Positions 37,021 through 42,012 of a DNA stretch of 64,000 bases are shown here, one piece after another. The notes beneath the pieces are model-generated. The model saw nothing but the letters and a program-made list of their open reading frames with translations. It ran no database searches and had not been told where the DNA came from. Each line of letters starts with the position of its first letter. Within the stretch, counting starts at the first letter, position 1. The stretch spans positions 62,113 through 126,112 of the forward strand of contig JBGAJG010000002.1 of the NCBI GenBank assembly GCA_044225015.1, read 5' to 3'. This DNA is from Chitinophagaceae bacterium (lineage in GTDB: Bacteria > Bacteroidota > Bacteroidia > Chitinophagales > Chitinophagaceae). Made by a program: the position numbers and the translations under genes.

Positions 37021-37049
37021 AAAAAGCCCCGGAAAACCGGGGCTTTTTT
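37021..37049. terminator. Bidirectional terminator between rpoB and thrC
   Basis: AAAAA GCCCCGG AAAA CCGGGGC TTTTTT. Confidence 0.75.
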
Positions 37050-37100: not shown

Positions 37101-38402
37101 TCATTTTTTCCCTGCGAACATAGAAAGTAAGTAGTCTTTCAGAACAGCGTAATCAGGCGCCATCATCCTTGCAGACTTTGTTTTGGACATGATTGCAGCT
37201 GCCTGTGGCGGGAGCGCAGGCTTTAACCCGGTGGCTTTCTCCACCACATCCGGAAATTTCACGGGGTGTGCCGTTTCCAGGATAAATCCCGGCTGGCCGG
37301 CCGCCAAAGCCTCCATGGCGGCAAACGCTACGGCACCGTGGGGATCCAGCAGGTAACCATAATCCTTATAAACCCTGGCAATAGTGGATGCTGTTTCACC
37401 GTCACTGATGCTGATGCTGGAGATCTTTTCTTTTACTAACAGATATGCATAATCGAAAATCCGCAATATGCGGATAAAATTGCTGGGGTCACCCACATCC
37501 ATGGCATTAGATACGGTAGGCACGGCAATGGCGGGAGCATAGTCTCCTGACGAGAGATAGCGCGTAACCACATCATTGGCGTTGCAGGCTGCAATGAAAT
37601 GTTTCACCGGGAGACCAGTTACCGATGCCAGAATTCCCGCGCAGATATTGCCGAAGTTTCCGCTGGGGACAGAGATCACAGGGAGTTCCCCGCTGTTCCA
37701 CTGACGCAACCCCAGGAAGTAATAGATCTGTTGCGGAAGCCATCGGGCCACATTGATGGAGTTGGCAGAGGTCAGGAACAATTCCTGTTTCAATGCAGTA
37801 TCCATGAAGGCCTGCTTCACCAGGCGCTGGCAGGCATCAAAATCGCCCGTGATTTCCAGGGCATGTATATTCCCGCCATAGGTGGTGAGTTGTTGCTCCT
37901 GCACAGGCGAAACTTTTCCGGAAGGGTAGAGGATCACCACATCCACGCCCTCCACTCCATAGAAGCCATCAGCCACAGCACCGCCGGTATCTCCGGAGGT
38001 TGCCACCAGTACAAGGGTTTTTTGTTTTTTCTCGCGGGAGAAATAACCCAGGCAGCGGCTCATAAAACGTGCACCCACATCTTTGAAAGCCAGCGTTGGG
38101 CCGTGGTACAGTTCAAGTGAATACACAGTTGGTGTTATAGGAACGAGGGGAAAAGGAAATGCAATGGTTTCTTCAATGATGCGCTTCAGTTCATCATCAG
38201 GAATTGTGCCGCCAACATAAGGCCTCATGACATCAAATCCAATATCCGCAGGGCTATGGTCTTGCAGGGCCTGCACAGAGGTATACCGATGTGCAGGCAG
38301 ATGTTCCGGAAAATAAAGCCCTTTATCTGGCGCCTGGCCGGCGATGGTGGCTTCCCTGAAATTAACTGCAGGAGCTTGTTTATTCAGACTTTGATAGATC
38401 AT
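37101..38402 (-). CDS. thrC: Threonine synthase
   Basis: 433 aa. PLP-lysine context PTLAFKDVGARF. 4-nt overlap with thrB. Confidence 0.93.
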   Translation of the reverse strand: MIYQSLNKQAPAVNFREATIAGQAPDKGLYFPEHLPAHRYTSVQALQDHSPADIGFDVMRPYVGGTIPDDELKRIIEETIAFPFPLVPITPTVYSLELYHGPTLAFKDVGARFMSRCLGYFSREKKQKTLVLVATSGDTGGAVADGFYGVEGVDVVILYPSGKVSPVQEQQLTTYGGNIHALEITGDFDACQRLVKQAFMDTALKQELFLTSANSINVARWLPQQIYYFLGLRQWNSGELPVISVPSGNFGNICAGILASVTGLPVKHFIAACNANDVVTRYLSSGDYAPAIAVPTVSNAMDVGDPSNFIRILRIFDYAYLLVKEKISSISISDGETASTIARVYKDYGYLLDPHGAVAFAAMEALAAGQPGFILETAHPVKFPDVVEKATGLKPALPPQAAAIMSKTKSARMMAPDYAVLKDYLLSMFAGKK

Positions 38403-39322
38403 GCGGGAATCATTTTTACGCCTTCGTGATTGATGGTGGTTACATATACAGAATGGTCTATACCCGCCTTTGTATAAATCTCTTCCATGGTCTTACCCAC
38501 TTGTTCAGCGGTTGCCCTTTCTTTACTTAACATGAAAATGGATGGTCCGGACCCTGAGATACCCCCACCCAATGCCCCTGCTTCTATTGAGCGCTTTTTT
38601 ACCTTGTCAAATTCCGGGATCAGGATACTGCGCACGGGTTCAATGATCACATCTTCCAGGGACCTCCCGATGAGTTCATGGTTGCCCTGCATGAGACCGG
38701 CCACCAGTCCGGCGATATTACCCCACTGGCGGATCGCATCTTTCAGCAGGATCTGCTTCTTCAGGATCTGGCGTGCATCAGATGTCTTCACTTCAATCTG
38801 TGGATGCACCAATGTCACATACAGTTCAGGAGGCGAGATACGGATGATATCCAGTGGATGAATACTGCGGATCAAGGTGATCCCGCCCATGAGGCAGGGT
38901 GCGATATTGTCTGCATGCTTCACACCGGAAGCCAGTTTTTCACCATGCATGGCAAACTGCACCAGTTCCAACGGGGTGTAAGGATTGCCGAGCAGCATAT
39001 TGGCAGCCGCAACCGCACCCGCGGCGCTTGCGGCGCTGGAACCCGCACCGCTGCCGGGTTTGATCCGCTTCTCAATCTGCAATTCAAATCCAGGGGGATT
39101 ATCCATGGCAGCCATCATTGCCAGCAATGAAACACCAGCAACGTTTTTCTCGGGATCTGTAGGTAAACCGAAATTATCCAGGTTCCTGATCACCAGGCCT
39201 GGCTCTTCCCTGCGGGAGAGGATCATAAGGTCTGATGGTTCTTCCAGTGCCAGCCCAAGGATATCAAATCCACAAACAAGATTGGCAACTGTACCGGGCG
39301 CGAGAACGGAAACTTTTTCCAT
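38399..39322 (-). CDS. thrB: Homoserine kinase
   Basis: 307 aa. GHMP kinase motif PGSGAGSSAASAA. Confidence 0.92.
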   Translation of the reverse strand: MEKVSVLAPGTVANLVCGFDILGLALEEPSDLMILSRREEPGLVIRNLDNFGLPTDPEKNVAGVSLLAMMAAMDNPPGFELQIEKRIKPGSGAGSSAASAAGAVAAANMLLGNPYTPLELVQFAMHGEKLASGVKHADNIAPCLMGGITLIRSIHPLDIIRISPPELYVTLVHPQIEVKTSDARQILKKQILLKDAIRQWGNIAGLVAGLMQGNHELIGRSLEDVIIEPVRSILIPEFDKVKKRSIEAGALGGGISGSGPSIFMLSKERATAEQVGKTMEEIYTKAGIDHSVYVTTINHEGVKMIPA

Positions 39323-39345: not shown

Positions 39346-41790
39346 CTAACTGATGGCTATTACAGCGCGAATAATATCGGCAAAGACGCCAGAAGCGGTA
39401 ACCTCTGCCCCGGCTCCTGCCCCTTTCACTACCAGCGGCTGGTCAGGATATCGGGGCGTATAAAACCGAACGATATTGTCTTTTCCATACAGGTGGTAGA
39501 AATCATGGGCAGGATCAATATGCTGTAAGCCTACTTTTGCTTTCCCTTCCGCATAGCGCGCCACAAATTTCAGTTTGCATCCTTTGGCTGCTGCGTCTTC
39601 ATAAATCTTTTTGAAATGGGCTTCCTGGTTAGACAGCTCCTTGTAAAAGTCTTCCACAGTACCTTCCATGCAGGATTCAGGCAGGAATTTCTCATTCTCT
39701 ACCTCGGCCATTTCCATCGATTCCCCGCTTTCCCTGGCGAGGATCAGAATCTTCCTGGCTACATCCGTGCCACTAAGATCAAGACGTGGATCTGGTTCTG
39801 TATATCCTTCGTCCTGGGCCTGACGTACTACTTCTGCAAAGCTTCTCTTCCCGTCATAGTGGTTGAACACGAAATTCAGGGTTCCACTCAAAACGGCTTC
39901 AATCTTATTGATACGGTCTCCGCTCCGCAACAGATCATTAAGGGTGCCGATGACGGGAAGGCCCGCACCAACATTGGTTTCAAAAAGGAAACGGGTATTA
40001 AACTCCGCTGCAAGTTCCTTAAGGTTATGATAGTGCGCAAAGGACGATGATGCGGCAATTTTATTGCAGGCAACTACAGCAATGCTTTTTTGCAAGAGCT
40101 GCGGATACAAGGCTGCCACTTGGTCACTGGCGGTTACATCCACAAACACGCTGTTGCGCATATTACGGCTGATGATGTGTTCCACAAATGCAGGGAGGTT
40201 AGCAGTATCACCGTTTTCCAGAACGGACTCCCATTGCCCATTCAACCCCTCATCGCCAATCACCATCTTCCGGCTGTTGATGAGTCCCACCACGCGTACC
40301 TGCAACCGTAAATTTTTTTGCAGGAAGCTTGCCTGCTGCTGCAGCTGTGCAAATAATCTCCGCCCCACATTGCCCGTGCCCGCTACAAAAAGGTTCACCT
40401 GGCGGTAGGTTGTTTCAAAGAATTCCTCGTGCAGTATGTTAACTGTTTTACGAACATCATCTGTACTGATCACCGCGGAGATATTTCTTTCAGAGGATCC
40501 CTGGGCTATGGCACGTACGTTTACACCATTGCGGCCCATGGCACCAAACATTTTACCACTGATGCCAGGATGGCTCTTCATATGCTCTCCCACCAGTGCC
40601 ACAATGGAAAGGTCTTTTTCCGTACGCAGCGGCTCCACTTTCCCAACACTGATTTCCCTCTCAAAAGCGGCATCCACAGCCGCTTGTGCCTTCTCTGTGG
40701 CAGAGGCATCAATGGCTACACAAATGGAATGTTCCGATGAACTCTGTGTGATCAGGATAACATTGATCTTCTCTGTTGCCAACGCTTCAAACAGGCGTTT
40801 GGAGAACCCTGGGATACCTATCATTCCACTTCCTTCCAGACTGATCAGGGCTACTTTGTTGATGCTGGATATGCCGGTAACGGTATCCTTGCTGTACAGG
40901 GTTTCATTATGGATCACCGTGCCATTGTCAGCAGCAGCAAAAGTATTTTTTACCCACACAGGAATATGGCGGGACATGACGGGTTGAATAGTGGGAGGGT
41001 AGATCACTTTGGCGCCAAAATGGGATAGTTCCATGGCCTCCTTGTAGGAAATTGCAGGGATGGGCCTCGCATTGGCTACCCAACGAGGGTCTGCCGTCAT
41101 CATACCAGACACATCGGTCCAGATCTCAAGAGACGATGCCTGTACACCTGCTGCAACAATGGCAGCGGTATAATCAGATCCTCCCCGGCCCAGGGTAGTG
41201 GTGGTACCATTGGCATCCGATGCAATAAATCCCGGCAACACCCATAATTTTTTTGCAGGTGTAAGGGCTGATTGAATGCTTTGATAGGTTGAAGGGAAAT
41301 CTACCTGGGCATTGCCATGCTGGCTGTTGGTGCGGATCAGGTTGCGTGCATCCACCCACTGGCTGTTCACTCCTTCCACGGCAAAGGACGCCGCGAGCAT
41401 GCGTGAACTCATCAGTTCTCCAAAACCCATGATCCTGTCCAGCGTGCGGGCCGACAGTTCTCCCAGCAAAAAGATCCCGTTGAGGATGTCTTCCAATTCA
41501 TTGCAATAAGTTTTGGTAAAACTCAGTACATGGCTCTGGTGTTGTACGGGGATCAACTGTTTCACCGTCTGCAAGTGCCGGTCCTCTAATGCCCGCAGGT
41601 CTTCTTTGTAAGTTTCATCACCGGCTGCAGCTTTCTGTCCGCAACTGATCAGCTGATCCGTGGTACCACTCATGGCAGATGCCACCAGGATCACATCGTC
41701 AGTTTTCATTGCCTTGTGAGCAATCTCCCTGACTTTTTTCATAGTTTCGGCACTCCCAACGGAAGTACCGCCAAATTTCATAACGAGCAT
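39346..41790 (-). CDS. thrA: Bifunctional aspartate kinase / homoserine dehydrogenase
   Basis: 814 aa. N-terminal MKFGGTSVG kinase, ACT regions, and a C-terminal NAD-binding GTGNVG homoserine dehydrogenase. Confidence 0.95.
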   Translation of the reverse strand: MLVMKFGGTSVGSAETMKKVREIAHKAMKTDDVILVASAMSGTTDQLISCGQKAAAGDETYKEDLRALEDRHLQTVKQLIPVQHQSHVLSFTKTYCNELEDILNGIFLLGELSARTLDRIMGFGELMSSRMLAASFAVEGVNSQWVDARNLIRTNSQHGNAQVDFPSTYQSIQSALTPAKKLWVLPGFIASDANGTTTTLGRGGSDYTAAIVAAGVQASSLEIWTDVSGMMTADPRWVANARPIPAISYKEAMELSHFGAKVIYPPTIQPVMSRHIPVWVKNTFAAADNGTVIHNETLYSKDTVTGISSINKVALISLEGSGMIGIPGFSKRLFEALATEKINVILITQSSSEHSICVAIDASATEKAQAAVDAAFEREISVGKVEPLRTEKDLSIVALVGEHMKSHPGISGKMFGAMGRNGVNVRAIAQGSSERNISAVISTDDVRKTVNILHEEFFETTYRQVNLFVAGTGNVGRRLFAQLQQQASFLQKNLRLQVRVVGLINSRKMVIGDEGLNGQWESVLENGDTANLPAFVEHIISRNMRNSVFVDVTASDQVAALYPQLLQKSIAVVACNKIAASSSFAHYHNLKELAAEFNTRFLFETNVGAGLPVIGTLNDLLRSGDRINKIEAVLSGTLNFVFNHYDGKRSFAEVVRQAQDEGYTEPDPRLDLSGTDVARKILILARESGESMEMAEVENEKFLPESCMEGTVEDFYKELSNQEAHFKKIYEDAAAKGCKLKFVARYAEGKAKVGLQHIDPAHDFYHLYGKDNIVRFYTPRYPDQPLVVKGAGAGAEVTASGVFADIIRAVIAIS

Positions 41791-41870
41791 ATTGTTGTTT
41801 TACGAGAGGTTAAAAAGGATTGACCCTGGAAAGTAGCCGAAGCCCGATGGTGATATGTTCATGCACAACC

Positions 41871-41957
41871 CTAACGGGTTGTAATGGTGGTGGTAATGGT
41901 AATGGCAGTCTGGATGGCGATGCCGATCCTGTTGTGATATGTACATTGACTTGCCAT
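41871..41957 (-). CDS. thr operon leader peptide candidate (28 codons, 8 Thr + 6 Ile)
   Basis: Minus-strand ATG at 41957. Peptide MASQCTYHNRIGIAIQTAITITTTITTR, stop TAG at 41873-41871. It lies 80 nt upstream of thrA and 16 nt downstream of a TATCTTTG -7 box. Too short for the supplied ORF track. Confidence 0.65.
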   Translation of the reverse strand: MASQCTYHNRIGIAIQTAITITTTITTR

Positions 41958-41973
41958 GGATTTGAATGGATTT

Positions 41974-41981
41974 CAAAGATA
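41974..41981 (-). promoter_or_regulatory. -7 box TATCTTTG for the thr leader/operon
   Basis: Exact TAnnTTTG on the minus strand. Confidence 0.5.
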
Positions 41982-41988
41982 AGGGGAA

Positions 41989-41996
41989 TATCTTTG
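41989..41996 (+). promoter_or_regulatory. -7 box TATCTTTG for the divergent GT2 gene
   Basis: Exact TAnnTTTG on the + strand, 16 nt before ATG 42013. Confidence 0.45.
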
Positions 41997-42012
41997 ATAA
42001 ACAAGTAGAAAA

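What the first reader, a model, noticed from the sequence alone, without database searches (positions are those of the whole stretch)
41812..41981. Thr/Ile-rich leader peptide and alternative hairpins upstream of thrA (attenuator candidate missed by the ORF track)
On the minus strand, 16 nt after a TATCTTTG -7 box, an ATG (41957) opens MASQCTYHNRIGIAIQTAITITTTITTR-stop. It has 8 Thr and 6 Ile in 28 codons, and 10 of the last 12 codons are Thr or Ile. The last Thr codons and the stop are part of a perfect hairpin, ACAACCC-GTTA-GGGTTGT (41882-41865). The 3' arm GGGTTG can alternatively pair with CAATCC (41822-41817), which is immediately followed by UUUUU (41816-41812), 21 nt before the thrA ATG. 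The E. coli thr operon is controlled by the ThrL leader ([21 protein letters not shown]) through ribosome-mediated attenuation responding to Thr and Ile. My inferred model is as follows. A ribosome reaching the stop codon masks ACAACCC and frees GGGTTG to form the terminator-like helix. A ribosome stalled earlier lets the 7-bp hairpin form and allows read-through. The terminator helix is weak (6 bp, long loop), so the mechanism is uncertain. The peptide itself is striking.
Basis: partly seen in the sequence, partly recalled or inferred. Interest (0 to 1): 0.7.

Follow-up and report, generated by a model that had tools for sequence, protein, structure and literature searches.

The report
Threonine/isoleucine leader peptide before thrABC
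A short upstream reading frame packed with threonine and isoleucine codons, conserved across Chitinophagales, very probably lets ribosome speed report Thr/Ile supply to the threonine-synthesis operon, but the usual terminator switch is missing downstream.

Summary
It is not chance. It is the only such ORF in six frames of the window. A model of the region hits once, just upstream of thrA, in 81 of 85 sources. Codons -9 to -2 are 81-97% Thr/Ile with free synonymous change, and P1 shows compensatory changes.

Its terminator helix (GGGUUG:CAAUCC plus U5) survives only in the two closest relatives, scores no better than shuffled sequence family-wide, and needs GGGUUG free while a terminating ribosome covers it.

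No 2:3 antiterminator was found, and a canonical terminator is rare (5 of 69 loci, none in the window). What is conserved instead:
- a helix pairing the leader's start region with the Thr/Ile run;
- P1;
- a single-stranded CAUAUCA at fixed spacing after P1, with a second copy 15-18 nt after the leader start codon;
- a small covarying hairpin (P2).

Verdict: a real Thr/Ile-sensing leader peptide absent from Rfam 15, with an unresolved, non-classical output stage.

The parts
41974..41981 (-). -7 promoter box TATCTTTG (Bacteroidota TAnnTTTG type)
   Evidence: Sequence. A -7-like box lies 10-20 nt before the leader start in 34 of 55 loci by a strict pattern, and near-matches are visible in most of the rest. 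It is identical in L081, L082 and L083. Promoter function is inferred.
42002..42004 (-). -33-like TTG, 20 nt upstream of the -7 box
   Evidence: Sequence. It lies inside a block conserved in relatives (..CTAAC..TTGTTAT). Function is inferred.
41871..41957 (-). Leader ORF, 28 codons plus TAG: MASQCTYHNRIGIAIQTAITITTTITTR
   Evidence: Homologous ORFs have a median of 29 codons and start with ATG (27), GTG (23) or TTG (5).
41877..41909 (-). Regulatory run ACT GCC ATT ACC ATT ACC ACC ACC ATT ACA ACC (10 of 11 codons Thr or Ile)
   Evidence: Across 67 loci, codons -9 to -2 are 81-97% Thr or Ile with synonymous variation (ACA/ACC/ACT/ACG, ATT/ATC).
41948..41957 (-). P0 5' arm AUGGCAAGUC, which contains the leader start codon
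   Evidence: It pairs with 41910-41902 in the minimum-energy fold. Relatives keep the pairing with changed sequence (AUGGCAG/CUGCCAU, UGGAAGC/GCUUCCA, AUGGUAA/UUACCAU; read from the sequences). Family-wide, cognate pairing beats non-cognate (p=2e-5).
41902..41910 (-). P0 3' arm GACUGCCAU, at the start of the Thr/Ile run
   Evidence: Nucleotides -36 to -18 before the stop pair with upstream sequence with probability about 0.5 across 60 loci.
41935..41941 (-). E1: first CATATCA copy, 16 nt after the leader ATG and out of frame here
   Evidence: The distance from the start codon is 18, 16 or 15 nt in 54 of 55 loci whatever the frame.
41865..41882 (-). P1 hairpin ACAACCC-GUUA-GGGUUGU with the stop codon (41873-41871) spanning loop and 3' arm
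   Evidence: It folds at -11.2 kcal/mol. Across 81 sequences, 90.5% of cells pair, 6 of 8 pairs show changes on both sides, and 36 cells are doubly changed against 10.9+/-2.4 in shuffles (0 of 500).
41851..41857 (-). E4: second CATATCA copy, single-stranded, after P1
   Evidence: ATA is invariant in 67 sequences. It keeps 8-9 nt from the GGRUU core of P1 even where the stop codon is displaced (L071, L078, L031). The region is 2% G. It is depleted of complementarity to downstream sequence and has an unpaired probability of 0.74.
41835..41844 (-). P2 mini-hairpin GGC-UUCG-GCU
   Evidence: A stem of at least 3 bp occurs in 92% of 61 loci (44% in controls) and at least 4 bp in 59% (20%). The fourth pair covaries: UA 15, CG 10, AU 9, GC 1.
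41812..41822 (-). It is not supported as a conserved element.
39346..41790 (-). thrA (aspartokinase / homoserine dehydrogenase). The true start may be ATG 41781.
   Evidence: Pfam AA_kinase, ACT and Homoserine_dh. The database twin P0001 is 811 aa.
38399..39322 (-). thrB (GHMP-family homoserine kinase)
37101..38402 (-). thrC (threonine synthase)
37021..37048 (-). Canonical intrinsic terminator after thrC (12-bp stem plus U-run). It is used here as an internal standard for what a terminator looks like in this genome.

Best explanation
This is the leader of the thrA-thrB-thrC operon. A promoter-proximal 28-codon ORF acts as a sensor of charged tRNA-Thr and tRNA-Ile.

Shown:
- The ORF, its run of about nine Thr/Ile codons and its position before thrA are conserved across Chitinophagales.
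- The stop codon sits in a covarying hairpin (P1) made of the last Thr codons and a post-stop GGGUUGU arm.
- The first half of the run pairs with the leader's own start region (P0).
- P1 is followed at fixed spacing by a single-stranded, nearly invariant CAUAUCA and a small covarying hairpin (P2).

Inferred:
- When Thr or Ile is scarce, the ribosome stalls in the run, which keeps P0 and P1 open. When supply is good, the ribosome reaches the stop and leaves, and the leader folds.
- This difference sets how many transcripts reach thrA.

The output is probably not the textbook 2:3/3:4 switch. No partner for the freed GGGUUGU arm exists, and a canonical terminator is absent from the window and from most relatives.

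My favoured version, about one chance in three, is this. P1 plus CAUAUCA act as a hairpin-dependent pause. Termination downstream is factor-dependent (Rho-type), or occurs at the weak, variable hairpin P3. It uses the G-poor stretch formed by the Thr/Ile run and the CAUAUCA region, and a stalled ribosome shields that stretch. The confidence given below is for the sensor role plus a premature-termination output taken together.
For: - ORF and coordinates.
- Operon identity.
- Uniqueness in the window.
- Conservation: 69 of 81 sequences by a strict filter and 81 of 85 sources by covariance model, one hit each.
- Selection at the codon level: Thr+Ile is 0.81-0.97 at codons -9 to -2 with synonymous variation.
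- P1 covariation.
- P0.
- P2.
- CAUAUCA spacing and single-strandedness.
- Promoter box.
- G-poor, C-rich composition: the Thr/Ile run is 33% C and 9% G, and the CAUAUCA region is 26% C and 2% G. The 78-nt window centred on the stop sits at the median 91st percentile of C-G excess within its own locus.
- A hairpin after P2 (P3) is more stable than in shuffles (-4.6 against -2.4 kcal/mol, p=2e-8) and has a U-enriched tail (0.42 against 0.34).
- Attenuation by uORF-controlled Rho-dependent termination is a documented kind (PMC12360218).
- Leader-peptide attenuation has been proposed in other Bacteroidota (PMC9723704 supplement; RF01692 in PMC2864571).
Against: - There are no expression data of any kind. 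Translation of the ORF and any Thr/Ile response are inferred.
- No antiterminator was detected.
- Only 5 of 69 loci have a canonical terminator-like site, and the window has none.
- P3 in the window is only -1.9 kcal/mol.
- Predicted accessibility of the thrA start region does not change with ribosome position.
- The rut-like composition follows partly and trivially from Thr/Ile codons and is not extreme.
- Sequence invariance such as that of CAUAUCA is unusual for Rho loading sites.
- The upstream CAUAUCA copy has no hairpin before it (z=-0.27), so a simple two-pause model does not fit both copies.
- Whether transcription and translation are coupled in this phylum is unknown to me.
Confidence: 0.55

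Rival explanations
1. P1 is an antiterminator. When a ribosome reaches the stop codon, GGGUUG is freed to pair with CAAUCC (41822-41817), and with the U5 run this forms an intrinsic terminator. A ribosome stalled earlier lets P1 form and allows read-through.
For: - The 6-bp complementarity and the U5 run exist in the window.
- The two closest relatives keep AACCC plus UUUU at the same place.
- The first two Thr/Ile codons of the run are far enough upstream that a ribosome stalled there would leave P1 intact (footprint arithmetic applied).
Against: - The helix is not conserved beyond 84%-identity relatives.
- Family-wide, complementarity equals that of shuffled sequence.
- The forced helix is less stable than the free fold and closes a loop of about 40 nt.
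- The terminator scan is negative.
- A ribosome at UAG covers GGGUUG, so it cannot free it.
Confidence: 0.06
2. Classical intrinsic attenuation after all. The variable hairpin P3 after P2, with its U-enriched tail, is the terminator. P2, whose 3' arm overlaps P3 in about a third of loci, or a lineage-specific pairing that I missed, is the antiterminator.
For: - P3 is significantly more stable than in shuffles and has a U-enriched tail.
- Terminator-like sites are about 2- to 4-fold enriched: 5 against 1.3 expected under strict criteria, 22 against 9.1 under relaxed ones.
- P3 starts inside the 3' arm of P2 in 18 of 58 loci.
- P2 3' arm against downstream sequence is marginal (p=0.03).
- Other Bacteroidota leaders carry clear terminators, for example F. 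psychrophilum hisG.
Against: - Median P3 stability is only -4.5 kcal/mol, and -1.9 in the window.
- Most loci fail terminator criteria, although this genome does use strong canonical terminators.
- No route links ribosome position to the choice between P2 and P3, because nothing pairs with the freed arm.
- The GCUG..CAGC idea failed (5 of 61 against 3.8 expected).
Confidence: 0.2
3. Post-transcriptional or factor-mediated control. The P1-CAUAUCA-P2 module, together with the second CAUAUCA in the ORF, is a binding or cleavage site for a protein (an RNA-binding regulator or an endoribonuclease). Leader translation or stalling changes access to it, which alters thrA mRNA stability or processing rather than transcript elongation.
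For: - Two identical, strand-specific, single-stranded heptamers lie at fixed spacings.
- They are depleted of any complementary partner.
- No covariation links them to other columns.
- Predicted accessibility of the downstream copy falls from 0.74-0.76 to 0.64-0.69 when the run is masked.
- The platform downstream of P2 varies between lineages, while the module itself is constant.
Against: - No candidate factor is known.
- The accessibility change is small.
- The motif is not enriched elsewhere in the window, and the model finds no further copies, so a dedicated trans factor would have a single known target.
Confidence: 0.15
4. The ORF is not translated. The Thr/Ile appearance is a by-product of an A/C/U-rich strand that must pair with G/U-rich arms in a structured non-coding leader.
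For: The run does pair with upstream and downstream G/U-rich arms.
Against: - Codons -9 to -4 lie outside P1, yet they keep the strict three-base pattern A-[C/U]-N with free third positions.
- An in-frame start codon sits at a fixed distance from a promoter box.
- A stop codon is kept in or right after P1 in all loci.
Confidence: 0.03

Closest known systems
E. coli thr operon leader (thrL; Rfam Thr_leader RF00506)
   Same: A short ORF with a run of Thr and Ile codons sits directly upstream of thrA-thrB-thrC. A hairpin joins the end of the ORF to the following segment. The presumed signal is the same: charging of tRNA-Thr and tRNA-Ile. The E. coli facts are from established knowledge.
   Different: There is no sequence or structure match to RF00506, even at E<=10. 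No 2:3 antiterminator exists. No GC-rich terminator with a U-tract is present in the window or in most relatives. Extra conserved elements are present: two CAUAUCA copies, P2, and the start-codon-sequestering P0. The phylum differs, and the promoter is of the -7/-33 type.
Leader-peptide elements proposed in other Bacteroidota: Bacteroid-trp (RF01692; PMC2864571), and the ilvE, hisG and trp leaders of Flavobacterium psychrophilum (PMC9723704 supplement)
   Same: Same phylum and same idea: short ORFs rich in the end-product amino acid lie in long 5' leaders of biosynthetic operons. These are computational or transcriptome-based predictions.
   Different: They concern other amino acids and operons. 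No thr leader is listed there. The F. psychrophilum hisG leader ends in a clear terminator hairpin, whereas this family mostly lacks one. No Rfam model matches.
uORF-controlled Rho-dependent attenuation (tnaC, speFL, cruR, mgtL, corL; the hisL attenuator may combine both modes) as reviewed in PMC12360218
   Same: A translated uORF has a ribosome whose position decides whether a G-poor, C-rich stretch is exposed. No intrinsic terminator is needed. In cruR the shielded Rut site lies inside the uORF, as the Thr/Ile run would here.
   Different: Rho dependence is untested here. The rut-like composition is only moderate. An invariant heptamer at fixed spacing from a hairpin is not a described feature of those systems.

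Membership tests
Classical ribosome-mediated leader-peptide attenuator (trp/his/thr type) | Short ORF with a run of codons for the pathway's end-product amino acid(s) | tested here: met
   8 Thr and 6 Ile in 28 codons. Thr+Ile is 0.81-0.97 at codons -9 to -2 in 67 loci.
Classical ribosome-mediated leader-peptide attenuator (trp/his/thr type) | Lies between the promoter and the first biosynthetic gene of the operon | tested here: met
   A -7 box lies 16 nt before the ORF, and thrA-thrB-thrC begins 80 nt after it. Promoter activity is inferred.
Classical ribosome-mediated leader-peptide attenuator (trp/his/thr type) | Hairpin 1:2 formed by the regulatory-codon or stop region and the following segment | tested here: met
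   P1 shows 90.5% pairing, 6 of 8 pairs with double changes, and 0 of 500 shuffles reach the observed value.
Classical ribosome-mediated leader-peptide attenuator (trp/his/thr type) | Segment 2 can alternatively pair with a segment 3 (antiterminator) | tested here: not met
   The P1 3' arm against all downstream sequence gives -5.39 cognate, -4.99 non-cognate and -5.63 shuffled. Extended segments are also negative.
Classical ribosome-mediated leader-peptide attenuator (trp/his/thr type) | Intrinsic terminator 3:4 (GC-rich stem plus U-tract) before the first structural gene | tested here: inconclusive
   The window has none. Under strict criteria 5 of 69 loci have one, against 1.3 expected. A weak hairpin with a U-enriched tail is present family-wide. 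A canonical terminator exists after thrC.
Classical ribosome-mediated leader-peptide attenuator (trp/his/thr type) | Read-through rises when the cognate tRNAs are poorly charged | not testable with these tools
   Needs expression or 3'-end data under Thr/Ile limitation.
Rfam Thr_leader (RF00506) | Match to the family covariance model | tested here: not met
   No hit at E<=10 in the window region, and none at E<=1 in eight representative loci.
Rfam Bacteroid-trp (RF01692) | Match to the family covariance model; Trp codons; upstream of trp genes | tested here: not met
   No hit. The codons are Thr/Ile and the operon is thr.
uORF-controlled Rho-dependent attenuation | Translated uORF in which ribosome dwell time depends on the signal | tested here: inconclusive
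   The uORF with hungry-codon potential is present and conserved. Translation and stalling were not observed.
uORF-controlled Rho-dependent attenuation | C-rich, G-poor, poorly structured Rho loading region that the ribosome shields or exposes | tested here: inconclusive
   The run is 33% C and 9% G, and the CAUAUCA region is 26% C and 2% G. The median percentile of C-G excess is 0.91. However, the run is base-paired in the ribosome-free fold.
uORF-controlled Rho-dependent attenuation | Termination depends on Rho | not testable with these tools
   Needs a Rho inhibitor or depletion, or in vitro termination assays.

The most novel reading that the evidence does not exclude
The invariant P1-(8-9 nt)-CAUAUCA-(5-7 nt)-P2 module, with a second CAUAUCA 15-18 nt after the leader start codon, is a new kind of attenuator output stage. 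It would replace the antiterminator/terminator pair. Candidate roles are a hairpin-dependent pause and entry site for Rho, or a site for another trans-acting factor. Ribosome-mediated amino-acid attenuation in Chitinophagales would then work without an intrinsic terminator.
Probability: 0.3. Interest if true: 0.7.

Novelty: new variant of a known kind. Interest (0 to 1): 0.5.

Why it matters
Leader-peptide attenuation is a textbook mechanism, worked out almost entirely in enterobacteria. In Bacteroidota it is known only from a few computational or transcriptome-based predictions, and this phylum uses different promoters and largely lacks Shine-Dalgarno-led initiation.

This family gives a well-populated, alignable example: 81 loci, one per genome. 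The sensing half is clearly classical, while the output half is not. That makes it a concrete system for two questions. One is whether transcription and translation are coupled in this phylum. The other is what replaces the terminator switch.

There is also a practical benefit. The element is missing from Rfam 15, and the small ORF is missed by gene callers. A model built from this alignment would annotate thr regulation across Chitinophagales.

Tried and rejected
1. Helix between the tail of the P1 3' arm and the 12 nt after P2. A few apparently compensatory cases (L015, L061, L066) suggested it, but family-wide it is no better than shuffled sequence.
2. P2 3' arm GCUG pairing with a downstream CAGC as a terminator base. 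CAGC occurs in 5 of 61 loci against 3.8 expected, and duplex energies are not different.
3. P1 3' arm pairing with the thrA start region. The window has GUUGU/ACAAC, but this is not general and is not compensated in L083.
4. Translational control by hiding the thrA start. The unpaired probability is 0.56-0.58 in all ribosome states.
5. CAUAUCA pairing with the thrA start, with upstream leader sequence or with downstream sequence. I found no enrichment, and downstream complementarity is actually depleted.
6. A second ORF starting in the P1 3' arm, or frameshift read-through of the stop. Open lengths are similar in all three frames and there is no consistent start or stop.
7. P1 itself as the terminator. 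I rejected this on logic: fast translation would melt it, while an early stall would let it form, which is the wrong sign for a biosynthetic operon.
8. A hairpin before the upstream CAUAUCA copy, which would make both copies hairpin-dependent pauses. None is present (z=-0.27).
9. Tertiary or long-range covariation involving CAUAUCA. Mutual information finds only the P1 pairs.
10. T-box-like reading of AUC/AUU/ACC inside CAUAUCA. The variation is explained by avoidance of G, there is no Stem I-like context, and T-boxes were not found in this phylum (PMC2494555).
11. Copies of the module elsewhere, or other leader peptides in the window. None were found.
12. RNAalifold on the MAFFT alignment returned no structure because of gaps in the loop. 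I therefore used a covariance-model alignment instead.
13. Literature. No paper in the held library describes a thr leader in Bacteroidota. Vitreschak et al. 2004 (FEMS Microbiol Lett) and Lopatovskaya et al. 2010 are not held. From memory, the former's abstract mentions candidate attenuators in Bacteroidetes/Chlorobi, so an earlier in-silico mention cannot be excluded.
Full report
OBSERVATION. On the minus strand, an ATG at 41957 opens MASQCTYHNRIGIAIQTAITITTTITTR and ends at TAG 41873-41871. The peptide has 8 Thr and 6 Ile, and 10 of its last 12 codons are Thr or Ile. TATCTTTG lies at 41981-41974, 16 nt before the ATG. The hairpin ACAACCC-GUUA-GGGUUGU lies at 41882-41865 and folds at -11.2 kcal/mol. 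Scanning every ORF tail in six frames of the window, this is the only one with at least 8 of 10 Thr/Ile residues.

CONTEXT. The three following genes on the same strand are:
- an aspartokinase/homoserine dehydrogenase (thrA, 41790-39346);
- a GHMP-family kinase (thrB);
- a threonine synthase (thrC).
A canonical 12-bp terminator with a U-run follows thrC at 37048-37021. A family-2 glycosyltransferase gene diverges from 42013, which leaves a 222-bp intergenic region. The best ThrA relatives are all Chitinophagaceae or Chitinophagales.

CONSERVATION. I fetched 80 thrA loci from species-representative genomes (64-75% ThrA identity) and four closer metagenomic relatives (78-84%).
- A Thr/Ile-rich ORF ending 78-135 nt before thrA was found in 69 of 81 sequences with a strict filter.
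- A covariance model of the last seven leader codons, P1 and the 62 nt after the stop codon (through P2 and the start of P3) hit 81 of 85 sources. Each source had exactly one hit, always just upstream of thrA, and there were no other hits in 694 kb.
- Across 67 loci, codons -9 to -2 before the stop are 81-97% Thr or Ile (about 60% Thr and 30% Ile). All synonymous codons are in use (ACA 148, ACC 123, ACT 88, ACG 25; ATT 139, ATC 36).
- Codons -9 to -4 lie outside the P1 hairpin. The three-base periodicity there is therefore a constraint on codons, not on RNA pairing.
- The N-terminal part of the peptide is not conserved.
- Leaders have a median of 29 codons and start with ATG (27), GTG (23) or TTG (5). 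The start lies 10-20 nt after a TAnnTT(T/C)G-like box.
- No Rfam 15 family matches, including Thr_leader RF00506 and Bacteroid-trp RF01692.

CONSERVED ANATOMY.

P1. The last Thr codons pair with the segment straight after the stop, so the stop codon sits in the loop. On the 81-sequence alignment, 90.5% of cells pair and 6 of 8 pairs show changes on both sides. Thirty-six cells are doubly changed against 10.9+/-2.4 in shuffles (0 of 500), and sliding the partner collapses pairing to 29-48%. Typical variants are ACAACCC/GGGUUGU, CAAUCCGC/GCGGAUUG, ACUCCGC/GCGGAGU and ACCCUCA/UGAGGGU.

P0. The 5' part of the ORF, often including the start codon, pairs with the first half of the Thr/Ile run. In the window this is AUGGCAAGUC (41957-41948) with GACUGCCAU (41910-41902). 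Relatives keep the pairing with different sequence (read from the sequences). Cognate pairs beat non-cognate and shuffled pairs (p about 1e-5). Nucleotides -36 to -18 pair upstream with probability about 0.5, and nucleotides -9 to -2 pair downstream with probability above 0.9. P0 and P1 therefore coexist.

E4. A nearly invariant CAUAUYA follows P1. The ATA is invariant in 67 sequences. It lies 8-9 nt after the GGRUU core of P1 even in loci where the stop codon is displaced (L071, L078, L031, L015). The stretch is 2% G. It is predicted to be single-stranded (0.74 unpaired) and is depleted of complementarity to everything downstream.

E1. A second CAUAU(C/U)A lies inside the ORF, 18, 16 or 15 nt after the start codon in 54 of 55 loci. 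In ten loci, including the window (41941-41935), it is out of frame. The constraint is therefore on nucleotides and spacing, not on His-Ile. No hairpin precedes it. The heptamer is not enriched window-wide (15 copies against 10.2 expected).

P2. A mini-hairpin GGC(N)-loop-(N')GCY lies 5-7 nt after E4. It has at least 3 bp in 92% of loci against 44% in controls. Its fourth pair covaries: UA 15, CG 10, AU 9, GC 1.

P3. A variable hairpin follows P2. It is more stable than in shuffles (mean -4.6 against -2.4 kcal/mol, p=2e-8) and has a U-enriched tail (0.42 against 0.34, p=1e-4). It is weak in most loci and only -1.9 kcal/mol in the window.

TESTS OF A SWITCH.

- It is kept only in the two closest relatives, where AACCC plus U4 stands in its place. 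It is lost at 81% and 78% ThrA identity.
- Family-wide, the P1 3' arm is no more complementary to its own downstream region than to shuffled sequence (-5.39 against -5.63 kcal/mol).
- In the window, forcing the helix gives -6.5 kcal/mol against -8.4 for the free fold. The terminator scan finds nothing.
- GGGUUG begins inside the stop codon. A terminating ribosome, which covers about 12 nt past the A-site codon (established knowledge), would mask it rather than free it.

Other candidate switches also failed:
- I found no other partner for the freed arm. The tail of the arm, the arm plus E4, the P2 arms and the 5' ORF part against downstream sequence or the thrA start region all gave nothing beyond chance.
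- Canonical terminator-like sites between the leader stop and thrA occur in 5 of 69 loci under strict criteria (1.3 expected) and in 22 of 69 under relaxed ones (9.1 expected).
- Predicted accessibility of the thrA start region is the same (0.56-0.58) whether the ribosome is absent, stalled mid-run, stalled late or at the stop.
- Mutual information over the alignment shows only the P1 pairs.

HOW IT MOST LIKELY WORKS.

Well supported: this is a translated leader whose Thr/Ile codons make ribosome progress depend on charged tRNA-Thr and tRNA-Ile, placed to control thrABC. I put this at about 0.85. In the ribosome-free state the run is held by P0 and P1. A ribosome stalled on codons -7 to -2 opens both, whereas a ribosome that reaches the stop leaves and lets them refold.

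Inferred: the output. The classical 2:3/3:4 pair is absent, and this genome's real terminators look quite different. I therefore favour premature termination that is factor-dependent, or that uses the weak P3. In this version P1 plus CAUAUCA serve as a hairpin-dependent pause, since the fixed 8-9 nt spacing puts the invariant AUA 10-12 nt after the stem. The G-poor stretch of Thr/Ile run, P1 and E4 serves as the loading region that a stalled ribosome shields. I put this version at about one in three. The composition fits only moderately: the 78-nt window centred on the stop sits at the median 91st percentile of C-G excess. Precedents exist (tnaC, speFL, cruR, mgtL, corL; hisL may mix both modes; PMC12360218).

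Rivals:
- classical termination at P3 with an antiterminator I missed (0.2);
- a protein or RNase acting on the two CAUAUCA sites (0.15);
- no translation (0.03).

Unexplained points are the invariance of CAUAUCA, its second copy at fixed distance from the start codon, and the diversity of what follows P2. One subgroup has 148-178-nt spacers and an AGGAG before thrA.

COMPARISON AND NOVELTY. In function this is the counterpart of E. coli thrL, but it is not a member of RF00506. It also fails one defining feature of the classical design, the antiterminator, and is inconclusive for another, the terminator. Leader-peptide attenuation has been proposed in Bacteroidota for trp (RF01692, PMC2864571) and for ilvE, hisG and trp in Flavobacterium psychrophilum (PMC9723704 supplement). 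I found no thr leader in the held literature. From memory, the abstract of Vitreschak et al. 2004, which is not held, mentions candidate attenuators in Bacteroidetes/Chlorobi, so prior in-silico notice is possible. I rate the finding as a new variant of a known kind, with interest 0.5. The sensing part is ordinary and convincing. The conserved P1-CAUAUCA-P2 module without a terminator switch is what a specialist would want explained.

LIMITS. Everything here is sequence analysis.
- Ribosome footprints were modelled as fixed masks.
- Energy tests use duplex approximations.
- All relatives are Chitinophagales, because the single genome-collection scan returned only the 80 best matches. The wider distribution in the phylum is therefore unknown.

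Noticed in passing
window 41779-41790 (-): The thrA ORF opens at ATG 41790 (MLVMKFGG...), but the identical database protein P0001 is 811 aa. That length corresponds to the second ATG at 41781 (MKFGG...). The true start, and so the leader-to-thrA spacing, may be 9 nt longer.
   Followed up: no
window 42001-42008 (-); L005, L010, L017, L023, L045, L049, L057, L069, L073 about 20 nt upstream of the -7 box: A conserved block AAACTAAC-N2-3-TTGTTAT overlaps the -33 TTG of the leader promoter in many loci. The window has CTACTTGTTTAT. It could be an extended promoter element or a regulator site.
   Followed up: no
L004, L022, L031, L077 (150-180 nt before thrA): In this subgroup the spacer between leader stop and thrA is 148-178 nt. 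It contains long extra hairpins and a Shine-Dalgarno-like AGGAG 6-10 nt before the thrA ATG, which is unusual for Bacteroidota. P1 and the CAUAUYA motif are kept, so the output platform seems to have been rebuilt.
   Followed up: partly
L071, L078, L022, L031: The leader ORF reads through P1 and stops after the hairpin instead of in its loop. CAUAUYA still keeps its 8-9 nt distance from the hairpin core.
   Followed up: partly
L077 about 2860-2990: The block around the downstream CAUAUCA copy (UUGUUAUAUCGU) has a 12-nt complement (AUGAUAUAGUAA) about 110 nt downstream. This is the only locus where I saw a partner for this motif.
   Followed up: no
window 37021-37048: A strong bidirectional intrinsic terminator (AAAAAGCCCCGG-TTTT-CCGGGGCTTTTT) lies between thrC and the convergent 1270-aa ORF. 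It shows that this organism does use canonical terminators.
   Followed up: yes
window 41958-42012: Only 55 bp separate the leader ATG from the start of the divergent glycosyltransferase gene (42013, + strand). The two promoters must overlap or lie back to back. Three of the four close relatives (L081-L083) share this arrangement, while L084 has a PEP carboxylase gene upstream instead.
   Followed up: no
window 41912-41929 (-): An inner hairpin GGAU-C-GGC-AUC-GCC-AUCC lies inside the leader ORF, within the P0 loop. It is specific to the window and is not kept in L081-L084.
   Followed up: partly
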